Shown: positions 50,459 through 60,918 of the stretch, piece by piece
How the letters are laid out: each line of letters starts with the position of its first letter
How positions within the stretch are numbered: the stretch's first letter is position 1
Sequence record: MW598459
DNA length: 64,000 nucleotides
DNA from: Escherichia phage vB_EcoM_RZ
Strand: one strand, 5' to 3'
The notes under the pieces: generated by a model
The model's database searches: none
What the model saw: only the letters and a program-made list of their open reading frames with translations
Told to the model about the DNA's origin: nothing
Position numbers and translations under genes: made by a program

Positions 50459-52018
50459 ATGAAAAAGAATGCATTAGTTCAAAAATGGTCCGCTCTGCTG
50501 GAAAACGAAGCTCTTCCGGAAATCGTTGGTGCTTCTAAACAAGCTATCATCGCTAAAATCTTTGAAAACCAGGAACAAGATATTCTGACCGCTCCTGAAT
50601 ACCGTGACGAAAAAATCTCCGAAGCATTTGGTTCTTTCCTGACCGAAGCTGAAATCGGTGGTGACCATGGTTATGATGCTACCAATATTGCTGCTGGCCA
50701 GACCTCTGGTGCAGTAACTCAGATTGGGCCGGCAGTTATGGGTATGGTTCGTCGTGCTATCCCGCATCTGATTGCGTTTGATATTTGTGGCGTACAGCCT
50801 CTGAACAACCCGACTGGCCAGGTATTTGCACTGCGTGCAGTATACGGTAAAGACCCTGTCGCTGCTGGTGCTAAAGAAGCTTTCCATCCGATGTATGCTC
50901 CGAACGCTATGTTCTCTGGTCAGGGCGCTGCTCAGACTTTTGAAGCACTGGCTGCAAGCAAAGTTCTGGAAGTTGGTAAAATTTATTCTCACTTCTTCGA
51001 AGCAACCGGTTCTGCACACTTCCAGGCTGTTGAAGCTGTAACTGTTGATGCTGCTGCTACCGATGCTGCTAAACTTGACGCTGCTGTTACCGCTCTGGTT
51101 GAAGCTGGTCAGCTGGCTGAACTGGCTGAAGGTATGGCTACCTCCATCGCCGAACTGCAAGAAGGTTTTAACGGTTCCCAGGATAACCCGTGGAACGAAA
51201 TGGGCTTCCGCATCGACAAACAAGTTATCGAAGCTAAATCCCGTCAGCTGAAAGCAAGCTACTCCATCGAACTGGCACAGGACCTCCGCGCTGTTCACGG
51301 TATGGATGCTGATGCCGAATTGAGTGGTATTCTGGCTACCGAAATTATGCTGGAAATCAACCGCGAAGTTATCGATTGGATTAACTACTCCGCACAGGTT
51401 GGTAAATCTGGTATGACCAACACCGTTGGCGCTAAAGCTGGTGTGTTTGACTTCCAGGACCCGATTGATATCCGTGGTGCTCGTTGGGCTGGTGAAAGCT
51501 TCAAAGCTTTACTGTTCCAGATTGATAAAGAAGCCGCTGAAATCGCTCGTCAGACCGGTCGTGGTGCAGGTAACTTCATCATCGCTTCCCGTAACGTAGT
51601 TAACGTGCTGGCTGCTGTTGATACTTCTGTTAGTTATGCTGCTCAGGGTCTGGGTAAAGGTTTCAACGTTGACACCACTAAAGCTGTGTTCGCTGGTGTA
51701 CTTGGTGGTAAATACCGCGTATACATCGACCAGTATGCTCGTGCAGATTACTTCACCATCGGTTACAAAGGCGCTAACGAAATGGATGCTGGTATCTACT
51801 ACGCACCATATGTTGCACTGACCCCGCTGCGTGGTTCTGACCCGAAAAACTTCCAGCCGGTTATGGGCTTCAAAACCCGTTACGGTATCGGTATCAACCC
51901 GTTTGCTGACCCTGCTGCTCAGGCTCCGACCAAGCGCATTCAGAACGGCATGCCGGACATCGTTAACAGCCTTGGCTTGAACGGTTACTTCCGCCGCGTA
52001 TATGTTAAAGGAATTTAA
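50459..52018 (+). CDS. 23: major capsid protein gp23
   Basis: 519 aa; long stretches identical to T4 gp23 (AIIAKIFENQE..GGDHGY..TQIGPAVMGMVRRAIP..). Confidence 0.97.
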   Translation: MKKNALVQKWSALLENEALPEIVGASKQAIIAKIFENQEQDILTAPEYRDEKISEAFGSFLTEAEIGGDHGYDATNIAAGQTSGAVTQIGPAVMGMVRRAIPHLIAFDICGVQPLNNPTGQVFALRAVYGKDPVAAGAKEAFHPMYAPNAMFSGQGAAQTFEALAASKVLEVGKIYSHFFEATGSAHFQAVEAVTVDAAATDAAKLDAAVTALVEAGQLAELAEGMATSIAELQEGFNGSQDNPWNEMGFRIDKQVIEAKSRQLKASYSIELAQDLRAVHGMDADAELSGILATEIMLEINREVIDWINYSAQVGKSGMTNTVGAKAGVFDFQDPIDIRGARWAGESFKALLFQIDKEAAEIARQTGRGAGNFIIASRNVVNVLAAVDTSVSYAAQGLGKGFNVDTTKAVFAGVLGGKYRVYIDQYARADYFTIGYKGANEMDAGIYYAPYVALTPLRGSDPKNFQPVMGFKTRYGIGINPFADPAAQAPTKRIQNGMPDIVNSLGLNGYFRRVYVKGI

Positions 52019-52037
52019 TCCTAGATTAAATTAAATA

Positions 52038-52069
52038 GAAAGGGACCCTTGAGGTCCCTTTCTTGTTTT
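52038..52069. terminator. bidirectional rho-independent terminator (between convergent gene 23 and minus ORF)
   Basis: AGGGACC-CTTGA-GGTCCCT hairpin with T-rich runs on both strands. Confidence 0.6.
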
Positions 52070-52350
52070 CATACCATACCATTTAAATGAACTTCTACCC
52101 GGCGCTTGATAAGGTCTCTGAAGTTAACATTGTTTTCTTGAAGTTTCAACCAGTTACCATTTTTATCTTTAGTGTGAGTAGAATAATTACCATTCCACCA
52201 GAAATCAGTGTCATATGCTAAGTTTTCATATTTTTTAACTAGTTTGTTCAGAGCATTACCATTAACACCATTTGGGTATTTGTTGACCAAGGCAATAACT
52301 TCAATTTCCAGATTTTTAAAGGTGTTCAGAAGGAAAGTTGCTTTGTTCAT
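52069..52350 (-). CDS. hypothetical early protein inserted between genes 23 and 24
   Basis: 93-aa minus-strand ORF with its own early-promoter cassette; occupies the position where T4 carries segD. Confidence 0.5.
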   Translation of the reverse strand: MNKATFLLNTFKNLEIEVIALVNKYPNGVNGNALNKLVKKYENLAYDTDFWWNGNYSTHTKDKNGNWLKLQENNVNFRDLIKRRVEVHLNGMV

Positions 52351-52391
52351 TTTTAAACTCCAGGTTTTGTTTGTTAACTCAGTATGGAATC

Positions 52392-52421
52392 ATTATGTCT
52401 TATCTTAATCTGGTTGTAAAC
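52392..52421 (-). promoter_or_regulatory. T4-type early promoter cassette
   Basis: Minus strand GTTTAC-N18-CATAAT-GATTCCATACTGAGTTAAC; leader near-identical to the 12677 and 13724 copies. Confidence 0.5.
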
Positions 52422-52427
52422 AACTTT

Positions 52428-52435
52428 TATAAATA
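52428..52435 (+). promoter_or_regulatory. late promoter TATAAATA for gene 24
   Basis: Exact TATAAATA 26 nt upstream of gp24 ATG; back-to-back with the minus-strand early promoter. Confidence 0.55.
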
Positions 52436-52460: not shown

Positions 52461-53741
52461 ATGGCTAAAATTAACGAACTCTTAAAAGAGTCGACCACGA
52501 CCACAAGTTCTTCGATTGGTCGACCGAATCTAGTAGCTTTAACCAGAGCTACGACTAAACTGATTTACACCGATTTAGTAGCACAACAGCGCACATCCCA
52601 GCCACTGGCGGCATTATACGGTCTTAAATACCTGACTCAGCAAGATGAATTATCTTTCCAGACTGGTGCAACCTATTCCGGTGCAGTATCAGCAAAAGAC
52701 CGTGCGACCATTCCGGTTTTTGTTGCTGGCACAGTTTATGCTAAAGACGATTTGTTCCAGTTTGAAAATGTAGTTTATAAAGCGCTGGTAGCAACTCCAT
52801 TTGCTGGAGCAACGGGCGATGAGTATGACCAGCTTCAAGAAGCGATGGTTAAATTGACCATCCGTATTATGTCCGAAGCTGCAATCACCGAACGTTTTGA
52901 AGGACCACAGGAAGTCGAAATTGCCGAAGCTAAATTTTTGGTTAACAAATGGAATGCTCCGGTTAAATCTCGTAAGCTGAAAAGCACTGTTACAGTGGAA
53001 CTGGCCCAGGACCTGGAAGCAAATGGTTTTGACGCTCCAAACTTCCTGGAAGACCTGTTAGCTACCGAAATGGCTGATGAAATTAACAAAGATATCCTGC
53101 AATCCCTGGTAACAGTTTCCAAGCGTTATAAAGTTGCTGGGCTCTGTGATGATGGCCTGATTGACCTGTCTTATACTAACTCTCCGGAAGCTTCACGCAA
53201 GTTGTACGAAATCATGTGTGAGATGGTCTCCCATATTCAGCGGGCAACTTCTTACACCGCAACATACGTTGTTGCTTCTACGCGTGTAGCTGCAGTTTTG
53301 GCTGGTTCTGGTTGGTTGAAGCATCGTCCACAAGATGAGAAATATCTCTCCGATAATGCGTATGGTTTCTTGGATAATGGTCTACCGCTTTATTGCGATA
53401 CGAACACTCCATTTGATTATGTGACTGTTGGTGTTAAAGAAGATTTCGGTGGGAAAGAGATGGTGGGTTCACTGTTTTATGCACCTTATACCGAAGGTCT
53501 TGACCTGGAAGACCCTGAACATGTTGGTTCGTTCAAAGTTGTCGTTGACCCAGAAAGTTTGCAGCCGTCTATTGCATTAATGGTTCGTTATGCGTTAGCA
53601 GCTAACCCTTATACAGTGACTGCTGATGATAAACAAGCTCGTATTATTGATGCAACAAATATGGATTTGATGGCAGGACGTTCAGATATGTCTGTACTGC
53701 TTGGTGTGAAACTTCCTAAAGTTCTGACTGAAATAAATTAA
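52461..53741 (+). CDS. 24: head vertex protein gp24
   Basis: 426 aa (T4 gp24 427 aa); gp23-like fold motifs. Confidence 0.9.
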   Translation: MAKINELLKESTTTTSSSIGRPNLVALTRATTKLIYTDLVAQQRTSQPLAALYGLKYLTQQDELSFQTGATYSGAVSAKDRATIPVFVAGTVYAKDDLFQFENVVYKALVATPFAGATGDEYDQLQEAMVKLTIRIMSEAAITERFEGPQEVEIAEAKFLVNKWNAPVKSRKLKSTVTVELAQDLEANGFDAPNFLEDLLATEMADEINKDILQSLVTVSKRYKVAGLCDDGLIDLSYTNSPEASRKLYEIMCEMVSHIQRATSYTATYVVASTRVAAVLAGSGWLKHRPQDEKYLSDNAYGFLDNGLPLYCDTNTPFDYVTVGVKEDFGGKEMVGSLFYAPYTEGLDLEDPEHVGSFKVVVDPESLQPSIALMVRYALAANPYTVTADDKQARIIDATNMDLMAGRSDMSVLLGVKLPKVLTEIN

Positions 53742-54775: not shown

Positions 54776-54873
54776 AATCTCTCACTTTTGATGTTATAAA
54801 TATCATTATAAATTAGACCCACTATACTTTCTTTCTCTGAAAGGAATTAATAGTCGCAAAGGGGTCTAGAACC

Positions 54874-54905: not shown

Positions 54906-55169
54906 TCAGAATTTTACATACAGCATTGGCTTGGCTTCTTGCCAATCATAATTCCAGGTAAATGATGTAAATTTTTCTGCTCGCAGAAATTCAGATATCT
55001 TTGCGCGGTTTCCTTCTTCATACTCTTTTTCAGAAACTGCCATATTAACAGCATCTTTGCCATTTTCAGCGGCGGCAATAGCCACTTTGCGGAATATAGC
55101 AATAAAGTCATTTGCAACTTTATCTTGTGACTCTTTGGCCATTTGACGTAGTTCTTCTGCGAATGTCAT
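54906..55169 (-). CDS. hypothetical protein (24.2/24.3 position)
   Basis: 87-aa ORF between hoc-like gene and rnlB. Confidence 0.45.
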   Translation of the reverse strand: MTFAEELRQMAKESQDKVANDFIAIFRKVAIAAAENGKDAVNMAVSEKEYEEGNRAKISEFLRAEKFTSFTWNYDWQEAKPMLYVKF

Positions 55170-55369: not shown

Positions 55370-55454
55370 GTTGAGTTAGTGAAGCTATCTTAACATGGAA
55401 TTTTTAACTTGTAAACAGGGTTTTTATGCCAGGCAACGTTTGTACAGTACCATA

Positions 55455-60906: not shown

Positions 60907-60918
60907 TATTTATAAATA
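60907..60918. promoter_or_regulatory. palindromic bidirectional late promoter TATTTATAAATA (gene 26 leftward, gene 51 rightward)
   Basis: Perfect palindrome containing TATAAATA on both strands between the divergent gp26 and gp51 starts. Confidence 0.5.

What the first reader, a model, noticed from the sequence alone, without database searches (positions are those of the whole stretch)
52069..52435. Early gene embedded in the late capsid operon, with back-to-back early and late promoters
Between gene 23 and gene 24, where T4 carries the homing endonuclease segD, there is a 93-aa minus-strand ORF with no endonuclease motifs. It is served by its own early-promoter cassette (52392-52421), which lies directly back-to-back with the gene 24 late promoter (52428-52435), and is followed by a bidirectional terminator. 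The arrangement suggests a cassette exchange at a recombination-prone junction.
Basis: partly seen in the sequence, partly recalled or inferred. Interest (0 to 1): 0.4.

Follow-up and report, generated by a model that had tools for sequence, protein, structure and literature searches.

The report
Variable early-gene slot between capsid genes
A small, conserved gene of unknown function sits backwards between the two main capsid genes of this T4-like phage with its own early-type promoter and a shared terminator. The layout is real, but it is an ordinary, already annotated feature of a slot that in related phages holds this gene, a homing endonuclease, both, or nothing.

Summary
The window is an SP18/DK-13-type Gaprivervirus. 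A 93-aa minus-strand ORF (52069-52350) lies between gene 23 and gene 24. Upstream is GTTTACA-17-CATAAT (52421-52392), 6 nt from the gene 24 late octamer TATAAATA (52428-52435). Downstream is an 11-bp hairpin (52037-52063) shared with gene 23.

The ORF is a real gene: dN/dS is 0.07-0.30, the model pLDDT is 93.5, and it matches PHROG 6003. It is not a segD remnant. No sequence or fold search gave a function.

Across 11 phages the late octamer, -35, -10 and the 17-nt spacing are conserved while the spacer is not. This holds whether the payload is this ORF, ORF plus a SegD-like endonuclease, or the endonuclease alone (T4). Empty slots (T2, TH57) lack the early promoter.

The same architecture was predicted for the RB69 ortholog in 2006, so it is already known. 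The modest new points are that T4 segD sits behind the homologous promoter, which a 2010 review reported as not found, and that SegD-type genes land at the 3' end of this ORF. Early timing in this phage is inferred, not measured.

The parts
50459..52018 (+). Gene 23, major capsid protein (519 aa), late gene; left border of the slot
   Evidence: ORF; annotated gp23 in SP18 at 99.4% nucleotide identity
52037..52063 (.). GC-rich hairpin (11-bp perfect arms, 5-nt loop) between the convergent gene 23 and the small ORF; predicted intrinsic terminator in both directions
   Evidence: Folding gives -18.6 kcal/mol (z -4.2) on + and -19.6 kcal/mol (z -3.4) on -. Hairpins of different sequence sit at the same place in TH57, UP19, T4 and T2. 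RB69 terminator '23-><-RB69ORF188c' was predicted by Nolan 2006.
52069..52350 (-). 93-aa basic protein (10.9 kDa, pI 9.4), PHROG 6003 / RB69ORF188c / JS98 gp173 / VR7ORF190c family; function unknown
   Evidence: PHROG 6003 E = 3.6e-47. dN/dS 0.07-0.30 and pI 9.2-9.7 in all members. AlphaFold pLDDT 93.5, helix-helix-beta hairpin-helix. No Pfam, NCBIfam, PADLOC, PDB or BFVD relative outside its own family.
52358..52361 (-). Shine-Dalgarno GGAG, 7 nt upstream of the ATG
   Evidence: Read directly; GGAG/GAGG at the equivalent place in the other phages
52392..52421 (-). T4-early-type sigma-70 promoter: G+TTTACA (52421-52415), 17-nt spacer, CATAAT (52397-52392); predicted start near 52385
   Evidence: Across 8 independent lineages -35 is 92% and -10 is 79% identical, against 36% for the spacer, and the spacing is 17 nt in all 11 phages. 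The orthologous RB69 site was predicted as Pe:109605, score 29.9.
52428..52435 (+). Late (gp55-type) promoter octamer TATAAATA for gene 24, 25 nt upstream of its ATG; lies in the AT-rich zone upstream of the leftward -35
   Evidence: Invariant in all 11 aligned phages. RB69 Pl:109573; fPS-65 'predicted late promoter'.
52461..53741 (+). Gene 24, capsid vertex protein (426 aa), late gene; right border of the slot
52033..52414 (.). The exchangeable module (terminator, ORF, leader, -10 and spacer): the stretch without homology to the same-genus phage TH15, which carries a SegD-like endonuclease instead
   Evidence: blastn breakpoints; consistent with the partial megablast matches of TH15 and TH57

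Best explanation
The locus is a self-contained, dispensable, pre-late expression unit inserted antisense between late genes 23 and 24.

Proposed mechanism. Early in infection, unmodified host sigma-70 RNA polymerase starts at the GTTTACA-17-CATAAT promoter, near 52385. It transcribes leftward through a 35-nt leader and the 93-aa ORF, and stops at the hairpin at 52063-52037, so early transcription does not run antisense into gene 23. Late in infection, gp55-programmed polymerase uses TATAAATA at 52428-52435 to transcribe gene 24 rightward. The same hairpin, read in the other direction, ends or attenuates gene 23 transcripts. The two promoters are 6 nt apart and point away from each other, with start sites about 56 bp apart. 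The late octamer occupies the AT-rich upstream zone of the early promoter.

Payload. The payload here is a small basic protein of the RB69ORF188c / PHROG 6003 family. It is under purifying selection but is not essential. I commit to it being an accessory early protein that acts by binding a host or phage macromolecule (host takeover or counter-defence type). That last step is the weakest.

Polymorphism. The slot holds this ORF, the ORF plus a SegD-type homing endonuclease inserted at its 3' end, the endonuclease alone behind the same promoter (T4), or nothing.

Shown: the ORF, its conservation and selection, the motifs, their phylogenetic footprint, the hairpin, and the four slot states with their breakpoints.
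Inferred: promoter activity and timing, termination in both directions, and protein function.
For: Gene reality:
- dN/dS is 0.15 (window vs VR7), 0.07 (JS10 vs UP19) and 0.15-0.30 at greater distance.
- The model is confident: pLDDT 93.5, pTM 0.80.
- Full-length PHROG 6003 match.
- 236 phage records carry a homolog.

Same slot and orientation: Gaprivervirus, Dhakavirus, Mosigvirus, and a 30%-identical member on a T4-like metagenome contig.

Promoter footprint: late octamer 100%, -35 92%, -10 79%, spacer 36%, downstream 35% mean pairwise identity. The spacer is exactly 17 nt in all 11 phages. The -35 matches the published T4 early signature GTTTAC (Nolan 2006). There is no TGCTT MotA box (read).

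Independent published prediction for the RB69 ortholog: Pe:109605 (-), Pl:109573 (+), terminator 109234-109251.

Experimental proxy: in T4, whose segD sits behind the positionally homologous TTTACA-17-TATTAT, segD RNA is classed 'early' (onset within 4 min) and SegD protein is detected by mass spectrometry (PMC9697503).

Terminator: stable hairpins at the same position in five lineages with different sequences.

Dispensability: empty slots in TH57, T2 and most Tequatroviruses, HEG-only slots, and frameshifted copies in RB69 and 310Ecol104PP.

Accessory character: distant members sit in long same-strand arrays of small genes in phages that are not T4-like.
Against: - No transcript data exist for this phage or its genus.
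- Within the window the sigma-70-like match is no better than chance.
- The window's -10 is CATAAT (C at -12) and lacks the extended TGn found in 6 of 8 lineages, so this copy may be weaker.
- The T4 'early' class in PMC9697503 is broad (215 genes, onset within 4 min), so it does not separate early from middle promoters.
- Edgell et al. 2010 reported that no segD-specific promoter was found in T4.
- The leftward U-tract is interrupted.
- Protein function has no positive evidence. All family, sequence and fold searches returned nothing outside the family.
Confidence: 0.7

Rival explanations
1. The ORF has no promoter of its own. It is transcribed by read-through from promoters further right (upstream of rnlB / 24.2-24.3), antisense across gene 24, as Edgell et al. 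2010 proposed for T4 segD. The GTTTACA-17-CATAAT match would then be fortuitous.
For: The within-window promoter match is at chance level. The 2010 review found no segD promoter. rnlB, 24.2 and 24.3 share the same 'early RNA' class as segD in T4.
Against: The -35 and -10 hexamers and the 17-nt spacing are conserved across at least six genera while the spacer and leader are not, which chance does not explain. Empty slots lose exactly this element. Bidirectional terminators lie between rnlB and gene 24 (PhAPEC2 annotation; RB69 '24-><-rnlB'). Nolan 2006 scored the RB69 site 29.9, in the upper range of their predicted early promoters.
Confidence: 0.1
2. The unit matters as a regulatory spacer and not for its protein. 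Divergent early transcription, or the promoter-terminator pair, tunes the gene 23 : gene 24 expression ratio or insulates the two late units, and the ORF is incidental.
For: The hairpin and the separate late promoter for gene 24 are present in all states, including empty ones. gp23 and gp24 are needed in very different amounts (established T4 knowledge).
Against: The protein is under purifying selection and folds confidently. Empty-slot phages keep the terminator and late promoter without the early promoter or ORF, so late regulation does not need them. The payload can be replaced by an unrelated endonuclease.
Confidence: 0.08
3. The promoter belongs to the SegD-type homing-endonuclease element, and the small ORF is a later passenger inserted between that promoter and the endonuclease or left behind after its loss. 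The ORF-only state would then be derived from a HEG-containing ancestor.
For: The same promoter position is used by HEG-only cassettes in T4, TH15, NM4.3 and Gravdalen. TH15 and TH57 differ by one clean 715-nt block containing promoter plus HEG. SegD-like genes target this slot widely, in Slopekvirus even in the opposite orientation.
Against: ORF-only is the dominant state in three genera, and ORF divergence (63% and 36% identity) tracks the genera. In Dhakavirus the HEG plus its own RBS replaces just the last ~10 nt of an otherwise 91%-identical ORF-only locus, which is the signature of a HEG arriving in a resident gene. The review states that no other T4 free-standing endonuclease uses an early promoter.
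Confidence: 0.12

Closest known systems
RB69 locus ORF189c/ORF188c with predicted Pe:109605, Pl:109573 and terminator '23-><-RB69ORF188c' (Nolan et al. 2006, PMC1524935, supplementary files 3, 5, 6)
   Same: Orthologous gene family (36% identity via the intact PhAPEC2 copy), same slot, same antisense orientation, same back-to-back early and late promoters, same convergent terminator.
   Different: The RB69 reference copy is double-frameshifted and annotated as two fragments; the window's copy is intact. RB69 has an extended -10 (TGa TACTAT); the window has AGa CATAAT.
T4 segD locus (free-standing GIY-YIG homing endonuclease between genes 23 and 24; Edgell et al. 2010, PMC2988022)
   Same: Same slot, same antisense orientation, same late octamer abutting a TTTACA-17-TAnnAT element, and a hairpin after gene 23. 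The payload RNA appears within 4 min of infection.
   Different: The payload is an unrelated 223-aa endonuclease (BLASTP E = 3.1). The T4 -35 is ATTTACA. The review reported that no segD promoter had been identified.
PeSL mobile regulatory cassettes of RB49/phi1 (Arbiol et al. 2010, PMC2839356)
   Same: A sigma-70-type early promoter with an AT-rich upstream region, associated with an ORFan at a variable locus inside the virion module. A stem-loop stops early transcription from spilling into late genes. The unit is gained and lost as a block.
   Different: There is no stem-loop within the ~100-bp promoter cassette here (z = +0.6); the hairpin is about 330 bp away at the other end of the ORF. 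The window shows no family of repeated cassettes. Mini-circles were not testable.
Plastic-region ORFans of T4-type genomes (small early genes with their own promoters; Nolan 2006: 13 of 57 RB69 early promoters precede novel ORFs)
   Same: Small, non-essential, lineage-restricted, early-promoter-driven, function unknown.
   Different: It is located inside the conserved late head-gene block, not in the large plastic early regions.

Membership tests
PHROG 6003 / RB69ORF188c-JS98 gp173-VR7ORF190c protein family | Full-length sequence match to the family profile | tested here: met
   E = 3.6e-47, residues 1-90 on profile positions 1-90 of 90. 98-29% identity to 18 full-length members; invariant M1 K3 F6 N30 G31 N32 A45 Q71.
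PHROG 6003 / RB69ORF188c-JS98 gp173-VR7ORF190c protein family | Location antisense between genes 23 and 24 in Tevenvirinae | tested here: met
   Distant members in phages that are not T4-like lie elsewhere.
T4-type early (sigma-70) promoter | -35 element GTTTAC (positions -36 to -31; Nolan 2006) | tested here: met
   GTTTACA at 52421-52415; 92% mean identity across 8 lineages; consensus quoted
T4-type early (sigma-70) promoter | -10 element with A at -11 and T at -7, at 17 +/- 1 nt spacing | tested here: met
   CATAAT at 17 nt, with A-11 and T-7 present and C instead of T at -12. No extended TGn in the window.
T4-type early (sigma-70) promoter | [quoted passage not shown] | tested here: met
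   The minus strand reads TTTATTTATAAAAGTT immediately upstream of GTTTACA. This stretch contains the late octamer.
T4-type early (sigma-70) promoter | Transcription starts here in the first minutes of infection without phage factors | not testable with these tools
   Proxy only: the T4 segD RNA behind the homologous element has onset within 4 min.
T4 late (gp55) promoter | Exact TATAAATA a short distance upstream of a late gene | tested here: met
   52428-52435, 25 nt before the gene 24 ATG. Motif enriched 21 vs 5.2. Invariant in 11 phages.
Intrinsic (rho-independent) bidirectional terminator | Stable GC-rich hairpin followed by a U-tract on each strand | tested here: inconclusive
   The hairpin is met on both strands. 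The U-tract is good on + (UUGUUUUC) and interrupted on - (AUUUAAUUU). Termination efficiency was not measured.
SegD / GIY-YIG homing endonuclease (or a remnant of one) | GIY-YIG domain or detectable similarity to SegD | tested here: not met
   No Pfam hit at E <= 1; BLASTP vs T4 SegD E = 3.1
PeSL mobile regulatory cassette (Arbiol 2010) | Stem-loop inside or overlapping the ~100-bp promoter cassette | tested here: not met
   The 110-nt and 66-nt promoter regions fold no better than shuffles (z = +0.62 and +0.43). The only strong inverted repeat is the distal terminator.
PeSL mobile regulatory cassette (Arbiol 2010) | Many near-identical copies in the genome that can recombine | tested here: inconclusive
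   Only one other GTTTAC-N17-TAnnnT in this 64-kb, mostly late-gene window. The early regions of the genome lie outside the window.
Known anti-phage defence or curated bacterial protein families | Profile match | tested here: not met
   PADLOC 0 families; NCBIfam 0 families

The most novel reading that the evidence does not exclude
The 23/24 slot is a promoter-equipped landing pad. The RB69ORF188c-family gene is the original resident. SegD-type homing endonucleases invade at its 3' end and are co-transcribed from its early promoter, which gives the ORF+HEG state of UP19, F2 and JK45. They then displace it, leaving the HEG-only state of T4 and TH15, and the whole unit can be lost (T2, TH57). 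This would explain three T4 oddities: segD is the only T4 endonuclease in antisense orientation, a 2010 review could find no promoter for it, and its RNA and protein are nevertheless detected. The displaced 93-aa basic protein would be a host-interaction or counter-defence factor whose loss is tolerated on laboratory hosts.
Probability: 0.35. Interest if true: 0.45.

Novelty: already known. Interest (0 to 1): 0.25.

Why it matters
The practical value is limited. The finding shows that a small family of about 90-aa basic proteins, restricted to T4-like and a few other large myoviruses, is conserved, selected and probably expressed before the late phase from inside the head-gene block. That makes it a clean candidate for a knockout or expression screen for host-takeover or anti-defence activity.

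The comparative series (ORF, ORF+HEG, HEG, empty), with breakpoints mapped to the nucleotide, is a compact natural example of how a free-standing homing endonuclease enters a phage genome behind a resident gene's promoter. It also suggests that T4 segD does have a promoter.

None of this changes how T4-type genome organisation is understood.

Tried and rejected
Function searches that returned nothing useful:
- Pfam, NCBIfam and PADLOC: no hits.
- PDB sequence profile: best E = 0.12, to designed helical bundles.
- Foldseek vs PDB: best E = 2.8.
- Foldseek vs BFVD: only a member of its own family.
- The AFDB50 library was unavailable.
- Exhaustive profile search of 1.84 billion representatives: 9 hits. 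Two (P0025, P0026) are repeat-driven artefacts and one (P0023) looks like a chimeric contig.
- Rfam: only sub-threshold hits caused by the terminator hairpin.

Hypotheses rejected:
- Truncated segD remnant.
- Canonical PeSL.
- MotA-dependent middle promoter: no TGCTT box at -30 (read).
- The 'glycosyl hydrolase family 25' label on the EAWsc9 ortholog.

Literature dead ends:
- No paper mentions RB69ORF188c, EpJS98_gp173, VR7ORF190c or SP18gp189 by name.
- No genome-wide T4 start-site map was found.
- Sokolov et al. 2018 on SegD is not held; I cite only its title, as listed.
- The curated T4 record carries no promoter features in this region.

I first read the conserved promoter as ancestral to the slot. 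The empty T2 and TH57 junctions showed that it travels with the occupied cassette.

Full report
**Identity of the window and the observation**

The 661 bases around the finding are 99.4-99.5% identical to Escherichia phage DK-13, Shigella phage SP18 and phage P479. SP18 is classified in Gaprivervirus, Tevenvirinae. The surrounding genes are the T4-type head block 20-67-68-21-22-23-(slot)-24, followed by rnlB on the opposite strand.

The ORF list shows gene 23 at 50459-52018 (+), a 93-aa ATG-initiated ORF at 52069-52350 (-), and gene 24 at 52461-53741 (+). Read on the minus strand, the control region is TATTTATA-AAAGTT-G-TTTACA-(17 nt)-CATAAT-(35-nt leader with GGAG)-ATG. This places:
- the late octamer at 52428-52435 (+);
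- the -35 at 52420-52415 (G at 52421);
- the -10 at 52397-52392.

A perfect 11-bp inverted repeat at 52037-52063 is the only strong hairpin in the interval. It scores as terminator-like on both strands and folds at -18.6 and -19.6 kcal/mol, z = -4.2 and -3.4.

**Is it more than chance?**

The late octamer is. TATAAATA occurs 21 times in the window against 5.2 expected, and no shuffle reaches 21.

The sigma-70-like element, taken alone, is not. The simple scan finds 3 such sites in the 1.5-kb region against 3.1 expected. The pattern GTTTAC-N16-18-TAnnnT has one match in the window against 2.1 expected. The case for the leftward promoter therefore rests on comparative evidence.

**The ORF is a real, conserved gene unrelated to SegD**

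- It matches PHROG 6003 (unknown function) end to end, E = 3.6e-47.
- It has no Pfam, NCBIfam or PADLOC match.
- tblastn finds homologs in 236 phage records.
- Synonymous change far exceeds non-synonymous change: dN/dS is 0.15 for window vs VR7, 0.07 for JS10 vs UP19, and 0.15-0.30 at larger distances. Every member is basic, pI 9.2-9.7.
- A 19-sequence alignment gives a confident AlphaFold model (pLDDT 93.5, pTM 0.80): two long helices, a beta-hairpin and a C-terminal helix. An invariant N-G-N (residues 30-32) lies at the loop-to-helix-2 junction.
- An exhaustive profile search of 1.84 billion representative proteins found 9 hits. Five are full-length family members, one is the frameshifted fragment P0020, and three are artefacts (P0025 and P0026 repeat-driven, P0023 a likely chimeric contig). 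The family is small and phage-restricted.

**Where the family sits**

It occupies the same slot, in the same antisense orientation, in:
- SP18 and VR7;
- Dhakavirus JS10 at 63% identity;
- Mosigvirus PhAPEC2 at 36% identity, annotated 'similar to RB69ORF188c';
- a T4-like metagenome contig at 30% identity.

RB69 itself carries a double-frameshifted copy annotated as ORF189c plus ORF188c. One Tequatrovirus (310Ecol104PP) has a frameshifted JS10-type copy.

Distant members (29-34% identity) lie in long same-strand arrays of small genes. One is in a Vequintavirinae-classified phage and one is on a contig that is not T4-like. That is the usual setting for early accessory genes.

**The promoter pair is a conserved footprint**

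I aligned the region between the antisense gene's ATG and the gene 24 ATG from 11 phages. They cover Gaprivervirus, Dhakavirus, Mosigvirus, Tequatrovirus, Moonvirus, Winklervirus and a metagenome contig, and they carry different payloads. Mean pairwise identity over eight independent lineages, kept in register:

| Element | Mean pairwise identity |
|---|---|
| Late octamer | 100% |
| -35 hexamer | 92% |
| -10 hexamer | 79% |
| 17-nt spacer | 36% |
| 12 nt after the -10 | 35% |

The spacer is exactly 17 nt in all eleven. An extended -10 (TGn) is present in six of the eight lineages but not in the window or TH15. The -35 is the published T4 early-promoter signature GTTTAC (Nolan et al. 2006). 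No TGCTT MotA box is present.

This pattern is what a functional promoter leaves behind. It also holds in T4 upstream of segD (ATTTACA-17-TATTAT).

**Prior knowledge of the architecture**

Nolan et al. 2006 ran HMM searches seeded with T4 consensus promoters on RB69. Their supplementary tables list:
- early promoter Pe:109605 (109555-109605, minus strand, score 29.9);
- late promoter Pl:109573 (plus strand);
- a TransTerm terminator '23-><-RB69ORF188c' at 109234-109251.

In RB69, ORF189c starts at 109531 and gene 24 at 109633. These are therefore the orthologous elements. The back-to-back early/late promoter arrangement with a convergent terminator has been predicted for this gene family for two decades.

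Arbiol et al. 2010 describe the general class: ORFans with strong sigma-70-type promoters and stem-loop terminators. A few of these lie inside the virion module, where the terminator prevents early transcription from spilling into late genes, and the units are shuffled as blocks. The present unit works like that but is not a canonical PeSL, because the promoter cassette itself contains no stem-loop (z = +0.6).

**Evidence for timing**

No transcript data exist for this genus. The nearest proxy is T4. In the time-resolved dual RNA-seq and proteomics of Wolfram-Schauerte et al. 2022, segD is listed as 'early-RNA_middle-Protein', and SegD peptides are quantified from the first minutes onward.

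Their 'early' class means onset within the first 4 min and covers 215 genes. It therefore shows pre-late expression but does not separate early from middle promoters.

This contrasts with the 2010 review by Edgell et al., which stated that no segD-specific promoter could be identified and assumed 'vanishingly low' transcript levels. The conserved TTTACA-17-TATTAT in T4 is a simple candidate for the missing promoter. This is my inference, and I did not find it stated in the literature I could search.

**The slot is polymorphic, and the breakpoints are sharp**

Four states occur:

| State | Examples |
|---|---|
| ORF only | window, SP18, VR7, JS10, PhAPEC2 |
| ORF plus a 219-aa SegD-like endonuclease directly downstream on the same strand | UP19; F2, JK45, ATK47 and the LF82 series by coordinates |
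| Endonuclease only | T4, T6, RB18, RB59, Gaprivervirus TH15, Moonvirus NM4.3, Winklervirus Gravdalen |
| Empty | Gaprivervirus TH57, T2 and most Tequatroviruses |

For the empty state in Tequatrovirus, only 53 of about 500 records at 95% identity or more carry segD. Every shown row that lacks it spans only 471-472 nt.

Pairwise blastn gives the junctions:
- **JS10 vs UP19.** About 670 nt (the endonuclease plus about 16 nt carrying its own RBS) replaces the last ~10 nt of the ORF. The C-terminus changes from RRVKIA to RRVKVEA. The flanks are 91% and 78% identical.
- **TH15 vs TH57.** The flanks are 98% identical. The two differ by one 715-nt block running from the -35 region to 6 nt before the end of the endonuclease gene.
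- **Window vs TH15.** Homology stops at the -35 hexamer (52415) on one side and at 52032 on the other. The exchangeable module in the window is therefore 52033-52414.

In empty T2 the terminator runs directly into an intact TATAAATA, and no GTTTACA is present. In TH57 the octamer is reduced to AATAAATA. The early promoter therefore travels with the occupied cassette.

**Most likely mechanism**

Host sigma-70 polymerase starts near 52385 and transcribes the leader and ORF leftward. It terminates at the hairpin, which protects gene 23 from antisense transcription. Later, gp55-directed polymerase starts about 6 nt downstream of the octamer and transcribes gene 24. The hairpin, read rightward, ends or attenuates gene 23 transcripts. 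The start sites are about 56 bp apart and divergent, and the late octamer lies in the AT-rich zone upstream of the early -35.

The motifs, their conservation and the hairpin are shown. Promoter activity, timing and termination are inferred.

The protein is dispensable, given the empty, HEG-only and frameshifted states, but it is selected where present. I commit, at about 30% probability for that step, to an accessory early protein that binds a host or phage macromolecule. This rests on its small size, its basic charge, the conserved surface-loop motif and the company its distant relatives keep.

**Rivals**

- Read-through expression without a local promoter is disfavoured by the footprint and by the terminators between rnlB and gene 24.
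- A purely regulatory spacer role is disfavoured by purifying selection and by empty-slot phages that keep late regulation intact.
- The idea that the promoter originally belonged to the endonuclease element cannot be excluded. It is less parsimonious given the Dhakavirus insertion signature and the dominance and depth of the ORF-only state.

**Verdict**

However, the feature is an annotated hypothetical gene in a known variable slot, and its regulatory architecture was already predicted for the RB69 ortholog.

The modest new points are the cross-genus promoter footprint that includes T4 segD, and the nucleotide-level series showing a SegD-type endonuclease entering behind this gene's promoter.

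Interest 0.25; novelty: already known.

Noticed in passing
window 52461-53741; L013 2057-3655; L002 1-2399; L008 3161-5764; L010 1337-3901: Gene 24 (vertex protein) is single-copy in this window and in SP18, but tandemly duplicated (24(1)/24(2)) in VR7, JS10, UP19, TH57 and a T4-like metagenome contig. Copy number therefore varies within one genus, right next to the variable slot.
   Followed up: no
L020 6262-6532 (RB69 109261-109531); L005 2501-2770: The RB69 reference copy of this gene is frameshifted twice and annotated as two fragments (ORF189c, ORF188c). Tequatrovirus 310Ecol104PP carries a frameshifted JS10-type copy. These are either pseudogenes or sequencing errors.
   Followed up: partly
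L006 5234-5323 (T4 107233-107322): T4 keeps ATTTACA-17-TATTAT with an extended -10 (TGa) upstream of segD, at the position homologous to the early promoter here. A 2010 review reported that no segD promoter could be found, while 2022 omics data show segD RNA within 4 min and detect SegD protein.
   Followed up: partly
L016 2001-2639 (Klebsiella phage Matisse): In Slopekvirus a SegD-like endonuclease occupies the same 23/24 slot but is co-directional with genes 23 and 24. The slot is therefore targeted independently of orientation.
   Followed up: no
PQ341120.1 9976-10254 (phage EAWsc9): The ortholog (98.9% identical) is labelled 'glycosyl hydrolase family 25' in that record. No Pfam support exists, so this is probably a misannotation.
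   Followed up: partly
window 55387-55416 (-): This is the only other GTTTAC-N17-TAnnnT match in the window (GTTTACAAGTTAAAAATTCCATGTTAAGAT). It is a candidate early promoter for the leftward cluster of small ORFs and rnlB.
   Followed up: no
window 54795-54802 (+); 60907-60918: A TATAAATA octamer sits just beyond the rnlB start, pointing rightward into the antisense of minus-strand ORF 54906-55169. Two overlapping octamers on opposite strands form a palindrome at 60907-60918. The purpose of both is unknown.
   Followed up: no
window 52012-52032: An AT-rich perfect 9-bp inverted repeat (AATTTAATC / GATTAAATT) spans the gene 23 stop codon, immediately before the GC-rich terminator hairpin.
   Followed up: no
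L008 3150-3175 (phage TH57): In the empty-slot Gaprivervirus TH57 the gene 24 late octamer reads AATAAATA (7 of 8). Gene 24 may therefore depend more on read-through from gene 23. The record is flagged UNVERIFIED.
   Followed up: no
P0023 (160 aa, 701-nt ENA contig): This protein has residues 124-154 about 70% identical to the family core but an unrelated N-terminal part. It is most likely a chimeric metagenome assembly.
   Followed up: no
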